64,000 nucleotides of DNA from Pecten maximus. Its lineage: Eukaryota. Made by a program: the position numbers. The DNA is taken from assembly GCF_902652985.1 (NCBI RefSeq), contig NC_047018.1:11904001-11968000 (forward strand). Direction: 5' to 3'. Below, piece after piece: positions 6,001 to 9,000 of the stretch (positions within the stretch are counted from its first letter, which is position 1; every line of letters begins with the position of its first letter).

Positions 6001-9000
6001 AGAGAGTTGTATAGTGTAGAGAGTTGTATAGTATAGAGAGTTGTATAGTGTAGAGTTGTATAGTGTAGAGAGTTGTATAGTGTAGAGAGTTGTATAGTAT
6101 AGAGAGTTGTATAGTGTAGAGAGTTGTATAGGGTAGAGAGTTGTATAGTGTAGAGAGTTGTATAGTGTAGAGAGTTGTATAGTATAGAGAGTTGTATAGT
6201 GTAGAGAGTTGTATAGTGTAGAGAGTTGTATAGTATAGAGAGTTGTATAGTATAGAGAGTTGTATAGTGTAGAGTTGTATAGTGTAGAGAGTTGTATAGT
6301 GTAGAGAGTTGTACAGTATAGAGAGTTGTACAGTGTAGAGAGTTGTATAGTGTAGAGAGTTATATAGTGTAGAGTTGTATAGTATAGAGAGTTGTATAGT
6401 GTAGAGAGTTGTATAGTGTAGAGAGTTATATAGTGTAGAGTTGTATAGTGTAGAGAGTTGTATAGTGTAGAGAGTTATATAGTGTAGAGTTGTATAGTGT
6501 AGAGAGTTGTATAGTATAGAGAGTTGTATAGTATAGAGAGTTATATAGTGTAGAGTTGTATAGTGTAGAGAGTTGTATAGTGTAGAGAGTTGTATAGTGT
6601 AGAGAGTTGTATAGTGTAGAGAGTTGTATAGTGTAGAGAGTTATATAGTGTAGAGCTGTACAGTATAGAGAGTTGTATAGTATAGAGAGTTGTATAGTGT
6701 AGAGAGTTGTATAGTATAGAGAGTTGTATAGTATAGAGTTGTATAGTGTAGAGAGTTGCATAGTGTAGAGAGTTGTATAGTGTAGAGAGTTGTATAGTAT
6801 AGAGAGTTGTATAGTATAGAGAGTTGTATAGTGTAGAGAGTTGTATAGTGTAGAGAGTTGTATAGTGTATAGAGTTTGTAGAAGTTGTATAAGTATAGAG
6901 TTGTATAGTGTAGAGTGTATAGAGTTGTTATAGTGTAGAGAGTTGTATAACTATACAGAGTTGTTATAGTGTAGAGAGTTGTATAGTTGTAGAGAGTGTA
7001 TAGTATAGAGAGTTGTTATAGTGTAAGAGCTTGTAAGTATAGAGAGTGTTGTATAGTGTTAGAGGAGTTTGTATAGTATAGAGAGTTGTATAGTGTAGAG
7101 AGTTGTATAGTATAGAGAGTTGTATAGTGTAGAGAGTTGTATAACTATACAGAGTTGTATAGTATAGAGAGTTGTATAGTGTAGAGAGTTGTATAGTATA
7201 GAGAATTGTATAGTGTAGAGAGTTATATAGTGTAGAGTTGTATAGTGTAGAGAGTTATATAGTGTAGAGAGTTGTATAACTATACAGAGTTGTACCGTGT
7301 ACAGAGTTGTATAGTGTAGAGTTGTACAGTATATAAAGTTGAATAGCATACAGTGTTGTACAAAATACAGAGTTGTATTGCGAGTTGTATAGAGTTGTAC
7401 AATGTTGCTAGCCATCTGATGGAATGTTGAAATTACCCCCAGTAATGTTGCAGGAAAGTATTATTACAAAATGTATCATGCTAGTAGTGAAACATGTTAT
7501 GTACAAGTCAGAGAGGCCCCAACTTAAGTATGGGACAGAAATGTGTACAGAAAGTCTCAAATGTAGGTAAGAGATATCACACCAGTGTCTCATTGACACC
7601 AACACCTAACATTAATTTCTGGTAACAATTCGGCCCAGCAATGTTAAATGTATGTAGCATCATAGTAAATCTTGATGGGCTTCATCTCACCCACAAACAA
7701 TAGCTAATATATAAAAAAAGTCTTCAAATAAAATGGAATTATTAGATTCTGCAAAATTAATTACTGGACAACATCTATAACACAGAATAATCATTGGATA
7801 CCTACCAGAGAGCTGGTTAATTTTCTTCTCCATCACACCGAAGTAATTTTTAAGACCCTCTACTGTGGCCATGACCTTCACCTGGTTAGAGTGAATGGTC
7901 AGGTAGTGTTTGGTCACGGCACCAAAGTCATGAATCAGACCTTCAACAGTCTTGTTGATAGCCTGTAATTACAAAATAACATACAACTTAAACAGCTGAC
8001 AATCATTTACTTAAATTGATTTTATAGTAATTTAATCTACAGAATAAAAAAATAATAGCATGTAAATTCATCATTATCTGACCACTCACCTGTATCTGAC
8101 CGCTCACCTGTATCTGACGACTCACCTGTATCTGACTGCTCACCTTTATCTGACCGCTCACCTGTATCTGACCGCTCACATGTATTTTACTGCTCACCTG
8201 CATCTTACAGCTCATCTGCATCTGACCACTCACCTGTATCTGACCACTCACCTGTATCTGACCGCTCACCTGTATCTGACTGCTCACCTTTATCTGACTG
8301 CTCACATGTATCTTACTGCTCACCTGCATCTTACAGCTCATCTGCATCTCACCACTCACATCTATCTGACCACTCACCTGTATCTGTGTACTAATGTCCT
8401 GTTTCATGTCATTTAACTGGTCATCATTGGCACCTTCTGACTCATCAGACTTTACAACAGAGGCATGATCTTGCTTGACCTGACAATATAATATTATTGA
8501 AAATATGACTAACAACATCATATTACGAACCAATAAAAGTTATTGAGTAAGAATTCCACGGAAGTGGATTTGGCGAAGAAAGTAATACAATTTGAACAAA
8601 AAGAAAATAATACATCTGATCTTTTTTAGTAACAGTGACCTTGACCTTTAATTTCCAGACTTAAAATGTAATCTCAAGGAAGCCCCATTGGTAAAGAAGG
8701 TCTATATGAAGTTTGGTTTTGATAAGCCCAAGGAAAGTTGAGTTTTCGTATGGAAACCTCTTGTGAGGACGCCGCCGCCGACATAGGTGACACAAAAAAG
8801 AGAGAGTTATATAGTATTACTGATTTAACATTTTGAATTTACCATGCTGACACAATAGATAGGGGCCTTTAATCATGGTTATAGTGTTGGGAATCACTTG
8901 CATGACTATGATCGATCATCACTTTTACACAAGAGCTGTTGGAGAACAGCATAGCTCATCTCACAAATGTTTGTCAATAAATAATTAAAATATATTAATT

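What the first reader, a model, noticed from the sequence alone, without database searches (positions are those of the whole stretch)
8075..8390. In-frame, stop-free ladder of 5' splice sites: potential variable-length (QIQVSG)n spacer
Exon 8479-8378 ends CAG ATA CAG|GTGAGT. The 18-bp unit repeats this junction (CAG|GTGAGY or AAG|GTGAGC in most copies), always in phase 0 with no stop; the ORF track shows an open frame to 8003. Any downstream donor would add 6-aa increments (VSGQIQ-like), up to ~100 aa, to the presumed luminal coiled-coil region while staying in frame with exon 7962.
Basis: partly seen in the sequence, partly recalled or inferred. Interest (0 to 1): 0.68.

Follow-up and report, generated by a model that had tools for sequence, protein, structure and literature searches.

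The report
Splice-donor minisatellite in a scallop intron
An 18-base tandem repeat that began on an exon-intron border of a scallop gene has copied the splice donor about a dozen times into the intron, an arrangement already known from several human genes in which the extra donors are mostly left unused.

Summary
Window 8075-8386 (minus strand) holds 17.3 copies of an 18-bp unit. Its first copy spans the border between exon 10 (8479-8378) and intron 10 of the Pecten maximus EFCAB14-like gene. Twelve of 17 units keep [C/A]AG|GTGAG, all in phase 0, and the frame is open to 8003.

The open frame is not more than chance (P = 0.33 in simulation). Donor-critical bases decay as fast as the others. 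The NCBI protein joins ...TQIQ|AINKTV, using the first donor, and the other three scallop species examined (Argopecten, Ylistrum, Mizuhopecten) show the same junction with no insert.

The same gene holds a second, larger array of this type: a 45-bp unit with 61 copies of the exon 4 donor in intron 4. Every one of those copies is followed by an in-frame stop.

The arrangement is known from human F7, IFI6, CBS, LMNB2 and PDGFA. There the most upstream donor is used, and in IFI6 and CBS the two nearest copies are used as well.

Best reading: a largely neutral intronic minisatellite made by slippage between two CAGATA hexamers, with mostly silent decoy donors. Whether any ladder donor is used could not be tested, because no RNA data and no view of the other isoforms were available. 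It is a new member of a known kind, of modest interest.

The parts
8378..8479 (-). Exon 10 of the EFCAB14-like gene (102 nt, phase 0 at both ends), ending CAG ATA CAG
   Evidence: Its translation is identical to P0001 residues 392-425. The acceptor is ttgtcag|GTCAAG.
8369..8386 (-). Unit 1 of the array, spanning the exon-intron border. The authentic donor is CAG|GTGAGT, with GT at 8377-8376.
   Evidence: It is the strongest donor of the gene's 14 within the window by consensus match (8 of 9) and by U1 duplex energy (-13.3 kcal/mol against -5.3 to -11.2 for the other 13).
8081..8368 (-). Units 2-17: 16 reiterated junctions. Eleven are consensus-grade pseudo-donors (exon-end equivalents 8324, 8288, 8270, 8252, 8234, 8198, 8162, 8144, 8126, 8108, 8090), 3 are weakened (8360, 8306, 8180) and 2 have no GT (8342, 8216).
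   Evidence: Unit table. Self-comparison peaks at a shift of 7 units (126 bp), with 91.7% identity.
8075..8080 (-). Partial 18th unit, CAGATA. It is the downstream copy of the hexamer that brackets the ancestral 18-mer (CAGATA-CAGGTGAGTGGT-CAGATA).
   Evidence: Sequence. The slippage origin is an inference.
7963..8074 (-). Non-repeated 3' part of intron 10 (112 nt), with a T-rich tract and the acceptor ttgtaattacag|G
7806..7962 (-). Exon 11, starting GCT ATC AAC (AINKTV...), phase 0
   Evidence: Matches P0001 residues 426-477.
15078..15176 (-). Exon 4, ending AAA GTT CCT GTA GTA GTA TCT|GTAAGT
12241..15098 (-). Second junction-spanning minisatellite: 45-bp unit, about 62 copies. The first unit is the last 21 nt of exon 4 plus the first 24 nt of intron 4. 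There are 62 GTAAGT sites, 61 of them in the authentic context TCT|GTAAGT, and a stop follows 4 codons after each junction.
   Evidence: TRF, sequence, counts.
11858..11965 (-). Exon 5 (ACT GCA GCA..., TAAKLG), the acceptor partner of exon 4

Best explanation
This is an intronic minisatellite whose founding 18-bp unit straddled the exon 10/intron 10 border of the Pecten maximus EFCAB14-like gene. The ancestral border read CAGATA-CAG|GTGAGTGGT-CAGATA. Slippage or unequal exchange between the two CAGATA hexamers duplicated the 18 bases between them, donor included (inferred). Further rounds, including a 7-unit (126-bp) higher-order duplication, built 17 copies and lengthened the intron from about 109 to 415 nt. 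The first copy keeps the true exon end, so splicing from the most upstream donor gives an unchanged mRNA and the expansion is invisible to selection. The in-frame, stop-free look follows from the unit being 18 nt long with no stop in that frame. The downstream donors are decoys (5' pseudo-sites). I expect them to be silent or used at a low level, because 5' splice-site choice in such arrays goes to the most upstream site, as shown experimentally for human F7 intron 7. Shown here: the anatomy, the use of the first donor in the annotated product, and the conserved junction in orthologues. Inferred: the slippage origin, neutrality, and silence of the decoys.
For: (1) Unit 1 spans the border, and the array ends in a partial CAGATA. 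(2) The NCBI protein P0001 ('EF-hand calcium-binding domain-containing protein 14-like isoform X2 [Pecten maximus]') reads ...DISTQIQ|AINKTVEG, and each exon's translation is identical to it. (3) In the alignment of 10 named proteins, the 5 other scallop sequences (Argopecten irradians, three Ylistrum balloti isoforms, Mizuhopecten yessoensis) all read TQIQ then A/D-I/L-NKT with no inserted residues. (4) There is no sign of selection on the ladder. The frame stays open by chance with P = 0.33. Donor-critical positions (-1, +1, +2, +5) carry 5 changes in 68 cells against 27 in 238 elsewhere, Fisher P = 0.50. Five of the 16 downstream copies have a damaged donor. (5) Internal control: intron 4 of the same gene carries 61 further copies of its own donor (TCT|GTAAGT) on a 45-bp unit, each followed by an in-frame TGA after 4 codons. 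The functional protein therefore requires the first donor there, and the gene tolerates large decoy ladders. (6) The genome region is minisatellite-rich: 8 arrays cover 43% of the gene span. (7) Precedent, from the introduction and discussion of PMC1557585: the first unit of the human F7 IVS7 37-bp VNTR spans the exon 7 border. Its identical pseudo-sites are functional but unused, including two that would keep the frame open. Only the authentic site is used in LMNB2 and PDGFA. (8) No RNA structure (z = -0.51) and no Rfam family in the array suggests another role.
Against: The annotated model may lean on protein homology, so it is not independent proof that the first donor is the only one used. 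P0001's 90% cluster holds 6 member sequences that I could not list, and some could be ladder isoforms. Three downstream donors are letter-for-letter identical to the true one over the full 18-base unit, and it is the strongest donor in the gene. The last donor (8090) would leave a 127-nt intron, close to the inferred ancestral 109 nt, which pairing of splice sites across a short intron could favour. Human IFI6 and CBS do use the two nearest pseudo-sites. In some duplicated-site constructs the site nearer the acceptor wins (recalled from Eperon and colleagues; PMC1557585 also notes contradictory results). All 8 variable positions of the unit avoid second codon positions (P = 0.011 a priori, 0.034 for any codon class), a weak coding-like hint. 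The F7 scanning rule was shown in mammalian cells, not in molluscs.
Confidence: 0.7

Rival explanations
1. IFI6-type alternative 5' splice-site ladder. Besides 8378, one or more downstream repeat donors are used at an appreciable level, giving in-frame isoforms with 6-aa steps (VSGQID... up to 96 aa) inserted between TQIQ and AINKTV.
For: Eleven of 16 downstream copies are consensus-grade donors, and 3 are identical to the authentic one. All are in phase and stop-free, so the products would escape nonsense-mediated decay. Human IFI6 makes three mRNAs from repeat-borne donors, and CBS also uses two pseudo-sites. The NCBI entry is 'isoform X2' and its cluster has 6 unseen members. No variable site falls on a second codon position (P = 0.011/0.034).
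Against: The two proximal copies, the ones used in IFI6 and CBS, are GAT|GTGAGT and CAG|ATGAGC here, and the first intact decoy lies 54 nt away. No database protein of 236-2000 aa carried repeat residues after QIQ (1 relevant hit, P0001, covering 26% of the query). No protein shorter than 359 aa matched the junction region (0 hits from 6 candidates). Orthologues have no insert. The junction sits inside a predicted continuous helix, 410-478 (low-confidence model). Six-residue steps would break a heptad register (inference).
Confidence: 0.22
2. The array is constitutive coding sequence. The real exon 10 runs through the repeats to the last donor (8090), and the annotated junction is a homology-driven mis-call.
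For: The frame is open through the whole array. The last unit is an exact copy of the donor and leaves a 127-nt intron of ancestral size. AlphaFold2 folds the read-through peptide as a confident beta-solenoid (pLDDT 83). Pfam Bactofilin scores 32.5 bits against a cut-off of 27.9.
Against: No orthologue has any insert here. The annotated protein lacks it. The open frame has P = 0.33 by chance. Most variable sites are non-synonymous: 6 of 8 variable positions change the residue. Confident solenoids for idealised repeats are a known AlphaFold2 habit (recalled). Foldseek found 0 PDB matches at E <= 0.001.
Confidence: 0.04
3. Functional intronic U1-binding array. The repeated donors are kept because a cluster of U1 snRNP sites helps exon 10 definition, transcription, or suppression of premature cleavage and polyadenylation in the intron, without being spliced.
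For: Twelve high-affinity U1 sites lie within 300 nt. The same gene has 62 sites in intron 4. Two of the 8 arrays in the gene start in the last 25 nt or less of an exon, P(>=2) = 0.011 under random placement. U1-dependent suppression of polyadenylation is established biology (listing and abstract of PMC3826338).
Against: Donor-critical bases are not better conserved than the rest. Nothing here tests U1 binding or its effect. The excess of junction-born arrays can also come from selection tolerating only those exon-touching duplications that keep the first donor.
Confidence: 0.04

Closest known systems
Human F7 intron 7 37-bp VNTR (Borensztajn et al. 2006, PMC1557585; abstract, introduction, discussion and reference list read)
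   Same: The first monomer spans the exon-intron border, so the authentic donor is followed by identical 5' pseudo-sites. Physiologically only the most upstream site is used. Some pseudo-sites would keep the frame open and are still unused.
   Different: F7 has a 37-bp unit (not a multiple of 3) in 5-9 copies, a weak donor (UGG|gugggu) and a documented length polymorphism, all in a mammal. Here the unit is 18 bp in 17 copies, every site is in frame, the donor is strong, the host is a mollusc, and neither polymorphism nor splicing has been measured.
Human IFI6 (6-16) intron 2 minisatellite (Turri et al. 1995; known only through PMC1557585 and a passage of PMC4526556, the original is not held)
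   Same: It is a short-unit minisatellite that supplies multiple splice donors: 25 pseudo-sites after the authentic one.
   Different: [quoted passage not shown] Here the two most proximal copies are damaged, and no isoform with an insert was found in the searches that were possible.
Human CBS intron 13 31-bp VNTR, and the LMNB2 and PDGFA junction repeats (as summarised in PMC1557585; titles)
   Same: All are exon/intron-border repeats that reiterate the donor. [quoted passage not shown] LMNB2 and PDGFA use the authentic donor only.
   Different: Their units are longer (31, 100 and 81 bp) and they are human genes. I saw only the summary and titles, not the data.
Notothenioid antifreeze glycoprotein origin (Chen, DeVries and Cheng 1997, as described in a passage of PMC6410882)
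   Same: A short element straddling an intron-exon junction was amplified in tandem and yielded a repetitive coding region. This is a precedent for a junction-born repeat becoming protein.
   Different: There the repeat is demonstrably translated and selected, and it straddles the acceptor side. Here translation is unshown, and the evidence points to an intronic by-product.

Membership tests
Junction-spanning minisatellite reiterating a 5' splice site (F7 / IFI6 / CBS / LMNB2 / PDGFA type) | Tandem array whose first monomer spans an exon-intron boundary | tested here: met
   Unit 1 is 8386-8369 and the exon ends at 8378.
Junction-spanning minisatellite reiterating a 5' splice site (F7 / IFI6 / CBS / LMNB2 / PDGFA type) | [quoted passage not shown] | tested here: met
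   Eleven of 16 downstream units have [C/A]AG|GTGAG, and 3 are identical to unit 1.
Junction-spanning minisatellite reiterating a 5' splice site (F7 / IFI6 / CBS / LMNB2 / PDGFA type) | The mature product uses the most upstream donor | tested here: met
   P0001 reads QIQ|AINKTV and orthologues have no insert. Exclusive use was not testable.
Junction-spanning minisatellite reiterating a 5' splice site (F7 / IFI6 / CBS / LMNB2 / PDGFA type) | Copy-number polymorphism between alleles (VNTR) | not testable with these tools
   Only one haplotype is present in the window, and no population or second-assembly data are available.
Alternative 5' splice-site ladder giving protein isoforms (IFI6 type) | Transcripts that join downstream repeat donors to the acceptor | not testable with these tools
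   No RNA data are available. Protein searches found no insert-bearing form, and the cluster members are unseen.
Alternative 5' splice-site ladder giving protein isoforms (IFI6 type) | Downstream donors keep the reading frame | tested here: met
   The period is 18 with no indels, and the frame has no stop.
Coding tandem repeat (true exon sequence) | Signs of coding constraint or presence in orthologous proteins | tested here: not met
   No insert appears in the 5 other scallop sequences. The open frame has P = 0.33. Six of 8 variable positions change the residue. The only hint is the absence of second-position variation (P = 0.011/0.034).
EFCAB14 family (host gene) | Named orthologues; N-terminal MKKRRELDAL tail, one membrane helix, long helical ectodomain, C-terminal EF-hand | tested here: inconclusive
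   NCBI names P0001 and several mollusc hits 'EFCAB14-like'. The tail, hydrophobic helix and C-terminal D-x-D-G-type motif are conserved in the alignment. Pfam EF-hand_6 scores only E = 0.0013, 18.7 bits against a cut-off of 25. No comparison with vertebrate EFCAB14 was run.
Bactofilin / beta-solenoid (hypothetical read-through peptide only) | Significant profile match and a fold match to solved solenoids | tested here: inconclusive
   Pfam PF04519 scores 32.5 bits against a cut-off of 27.9, and AF2 gives a solenoid with pLDDT 83. Foldseek finds 0 matches at E <= 0.001, the best being an ice-binding protein at TM 0.52. The peptide is not known to exist, and the match reflects the periodic pattern.

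The most novel reading that the evidence does not exclude
The ladder is a working length-variation device or a protein repeat in the making. Scallop tissues or alleles would use different repeat donors to insert 6 to 96 residues of (VSGQIQ)n into the ectodomain stalk of EFCAB14-like. AlphaFold2 and a Pfam bactofilin match predict that this segment folds as a beta-solenoid. Copy-number change of the minisatellite would then tune the protein directly. That would be an invertebrate counterpart of IFI6 and a live example of the junction-repeat route that produced notothenioid antifreeze glycoprotein.
Probability: 0.12. Interest if true: 0.55.

Novelty: new member of a known kind. Interest (0 to 1): 0.3.

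Why it matters
If the decoys are silent, this gene is a natural experiment on 5' splice-site choice outside mammals. One intron offers 11 intact in-frame decoys, three of them identical to the true site. Another intron of the same gene offers 61 exact decoys that would all be lethal to the reading frame. Counting junction reads at both would test whether the 'most upstream site wins' rule found for human F7 also holds in a mollusc with much shorter ancestral introns. If some decoys are used, the locus would show how a neutral intronic repeat can feed new in-frame peptide repeats into a protein. Either way it warns annotators that open frames across junction-born repeats are expected by construction.

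Tried and rejected
I did not repeat it.
2. A search for proteins shorter than 359 aa covering the exon 10-11 junction (P0001 residues 385-480) gave 0 hits from 6 candidates. The earlier 'longer' search with the exon-plus-repeat frame gave P0001 and an unrelated 849-aa protein, P0002. P0002 was not used further.
3. RNA structure of intron 10: z = -0.51, with 28 of 100 shuffles folding as well. Rejected as a feature.
4. Rfam at gathering thresholds over 1-22000 found nothing in the array, only two tRNAs elsewhere.
5. The Pfam Bactofilin hit and the AF2 solenoid are treated as consequences of a periodic hexapeptide, not as evidence that the peptide exists.
6. Codon-position bias of variable sites is a weak, post hoc signal. 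The units share history through the 7-unit duplication, so it carries little weight.
7. The full-length P0001 model has mean pLDDT 43. I used it only for the secondary-structure statement.
8. Turri et al. 1995 is not held.
9. Searches for the review on competing 5' splice sites did not yield a passage stating the proximity rule, so that rule is cited from recall.
10. A search for mollusc reports of junction minisatellites found 88 papers holding at least 4 of the 6 terms. None of the 10 listed is about this by title, so no prior mollusc example was found. This is a limited search.
11. A transposon origin for the unit is rejected, because the 18-mer occurs nowhere else in the window.
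Full report
WHAT IS THERE

The window is scallop DNA. Translating the open frame across the finding and searching it returned one relevant protein: NCBI 'EF-hand calcium-binding domain-containing protein 14-like isoform X2 [Pecten maximus]' (P0001, 654 aa, on a 52.7-Mb contig). Each exon's own translation is identical to P0001.

The gene runs on the minus strand from 17430 to beyond position 1, with 14 coding exons in the window. I did not build or search a joined spliced model of my own. Exon translations were searched one by one. Exon borders were set by matching each exon separately to P0001. The only full-length sequences used were database proteins returned by the search tool. 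The window has no N.

THE OBSERVATION

Tandem Repeats Finder gives 8075-8386, period 18, 17.3 copies, 85% matches, no indels. On the coding strand unit 1 is CAGATACAG|GTGAGTGGT, the last 9 nt of exon 10 (8479-8378) plus the first 9 nt of intron 10.

The 17 full units break down as follows:
- 12 keep [C/A]AG|GTGAG.
- 3 have T at -1 (units 2, 5, 12).
- 2 have lost the GT (units 3, 10).
- Units 8, 9 and 17 are identical to unit 1.

All sites are 18 nt apart and in phase 0, and the frame is open from 8539 to 8003. The last donor (exon end 8090) would add 96 residues and leave a 127-nt intron.

The true donor is the best of the gene's 14 donors in the window. It matches the consensus at 8 of 9 positions and has a U1 duplex energy of -13.3 kcal/mol, against -5.3 to -11.2 for the other 13.

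IS IT MORE THAN CHANCE?

The array is: 11 matches to the unit, all inside it, against 0.05 expected. The open frame is not. The consensus unit has no stop in that frame, and with the observed 32 substitutions in 306 bases scattered at random the frame stays open in 33% of 20,000 trials.

Donor-critical positions (-1, +1, +2, +5) carry 5 changes in 68 cells against 27 in 238 at the other positions (Fisher P = 0.50). The donors are therefore decaying like the rest of the unit.

One odd point remains. The 8 variable positions (1, 3, 6, 7, 9, 10, 15, 16) all avoid second codon positions (P = 0.011 if specified beforehand, 0.034 for any codon class). The units share history: self-identity peaks at a shift of 7 units, 91.7%. 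I therefore give this little weight.

WHAT THE PRODUCT LOOKS LIKE

P0001 reads ...DMKQDISTQIQ|AINKTVEGL, that is donor 8378 joined to acceptor 7962. I aligned ten named mollusc proteins. All five other scallop sequences (Argopecten irradians, three Ylistrum balloti isoforms, Mizuhopecten yessoensis) read TQIQ followed by A/D-I/L-NKT with no inserted residue.

A search for database proteins shorter than 359 aa across this junction found none (0 hits, 6 candidates). Other annotated isoforms therefore remain unseen. No RNA data and no scallop genome collection were available.

A low-confidence model of P0001 (mean pLDDT 43) puts the junction inside a predicted helix, residues 410-478.

A SECOND CASE IN THE SAME GENE

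Intron 4 holds a 45-bp array of about 62 copies (12241-15098). Its first unit is the last 21 nt of exon 4 plus the first 24 nt of the intron.

It contains 62 GTAAGT sites, 61 of them in the authentic context TCT|GTAAGT and 59 of 61 spacings exactly 45 nt. The frame hits TGA four codons after the authentic junction, and the stop recurs in every unit inspected. Only the first site is both in phase and open. The functional, conserved protein (MKVPVVVS|TAAKLG) needs the first donor there.

This is an internal control. The gene carries a much larger decoy ladder that cannot be productive, so an in-frame ladder next door needs no special explanation.

Two of the 8 arrays in the gene begin in the last 25 nt or less of an exon. 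Random placement gives two or more such arrays with P = 0.011. Tandem arrays cover 43% of the gene span.

HOW IT MOST LIKELY AROSE AND WORKS

The array is bracketed by CAGATA: CAGATA-CAGGTGAGTGGT-CAGATA, with the partial last unit at 8080-8075. Slippage or unequal exchange between the two hexamers would duplicate exactly this 18-mer (inference).

Removing 17 units leaves an intron of about 109 nt. A duplication that starts in an exon but carries the donor along leaves the first junction intact, so the mRNA is unchanged and selection does not see it (inference).

Choice of the first donor is what the annotated protein shows. It is also what was demonstrated for the closest known case, human F7.

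WHAT IS KNOWN

Borensztajn et al. 2006 (PMC1557585; abstract, introduction, discussion and references read) describe the human F7 intron 7 37-bp VNTR.
- Its first element spans the exon 7 border.
[quoted passage not shown] This includes two sites that would not create a stop.
- Even pseudo-sites improved to a consensus value of 91 do not compete.

The paper's introduction lists further genes:
- IFI6 (6-16): 25 pseudo-sites, with the two proximal ones constitutively used.
- CBS intron 13: two pseudo-sites used.
- LMNB2 and PDGFA: authentic site only.

A passage in PMC4526556 confirms three IFI6 mRNAs, encoding different isoforms, made from downstream repeat units.

Here the two proximal copies, the ones used in IFI6 and CBS, are GAT|GTGAGT and CAG|ATGAGC, and the first intact decoy is 54 nt away. 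[quoted passage not shown]

My limited search for a mollusc example found none among the 10 papers listed of 88.

THE BOLD READING

If translated, the repeat is a hexapeptide with alternating hydrophobic residues.
- AlphaFold2 without an alignment folds it as a beta-solenoid: mean pLDDT 83, one strand per hexapeptide.
- Pfam Bactofilin scores 32.5 bits against a cut-off of 27.9.
- Foldseek finds no PDB match at E <= 0.001. The best matches are ice-binding solenoids and bactofilin.

Confident solenoids for idealised repeats are a known weakness of AlphaFold2 (recalled), and nothing shows that the peptide exists.

The notothenioid antifreeze gene is a precedent for a junction-straddling element becoming a coding repeat (passage in PMC6410882).

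VERDICT

Best explanation: a largely neutral intronic minisatellite with decoy donors (0.70). Rivals:
- An IFI6-like in-frame isoform ladder (0.22).
- The array as true exon (0.04).
- A functional U1-binding array (0.04).

It is a new member of a known kind. Its value is as a natural test of 5' splice-site choice in a mollusc. Junction reads from RNA-seq would settle the matter.

LEFT UNCHECKED

- RNA evidence.
- The other annotated isoforms.
- Orthologous introns in other scallops.
- Length polymorphism.

The closed metagenome and viral collections and the closed paper supplements do not bear on these claims.

Noticed in passing
window 12241-15098 (-), with exon 4 at 15176-15078: A second junction-spanning minisatellite in the same gene. 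The 45-bp unit is the last 21 nt of exon 4 plus the first 24 nt of intron 4. There are 62 GTAAGT sites, 61 in the authentic context TCT|GTAAGT, and each junction inspected is followed by an in-frame TGA. Two of the 8 arrays in the gene start inside an exon's last 25 nt or less (P = 0.011 under random placement), an excess I cannot fully explain.
   Followed up: yes
window 21227-21112 and 20117-19960 (-): An alternative pair of 5' exons upstream of the annotated start. They encode a different cytoplasmic tail and a different membrane helix (MKRNGGTSQDIMMNLL... / ...FFVLLLICAVSVLMVISF...). They are in phase to join exon 3 and match the N-termini of the Mizuhopecten isoform X2 and Ylistrum isoform X3. 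The gene seems to swap its whole anchor by alternative promoter use.
   Followed up: partly
window 16160-16232 and 16379-16451 (-): Two tRNA-Thr (anticodon AGT) sequences lie 219 bp apart inside intron 2, on the gene's strand (Rfam 49 and 52 bits; ARAGORN). They may be nested tRNA genes or heads of tRNA-derived SINEs.
   Followed up: partly
window 36750-41050 (+) and 58090-62300 (+): Two non-LTR retrotransposon copies with endonuclease (Exo_endo_phos) and reverse transcriptase (RVT_1) domains spread over several frames, so probably degraded. A further retrotransposon-tail-like ORF at 23213-23863 (-) has no Pfam hit.
   Followed up: partly
window 1-17430 and the whole window: The region is extremely rich in minisatellites. 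Eight arrays cover 43% of the gene span, including a 17-bp unit of about 180 copies at 4347-7378. Large arrays elsewhere include a 26-bp unit of about 144 copies at 52972-56577 and 155-bp units at 28088-31016.
   Followed up: no
window 11687-11675 (-), start of exon 6: Exon 6 begins GTGAGTAAGGTAG, directly after its acceptor. This is a donor-like string at the very 5' end of an exon. The end of exon 5 plus its donor (TCG|GTAAGT) would encode the same two residues (VS) as the start of exon 6, so the two junction readings look alike at protein level.
   Followed up: no
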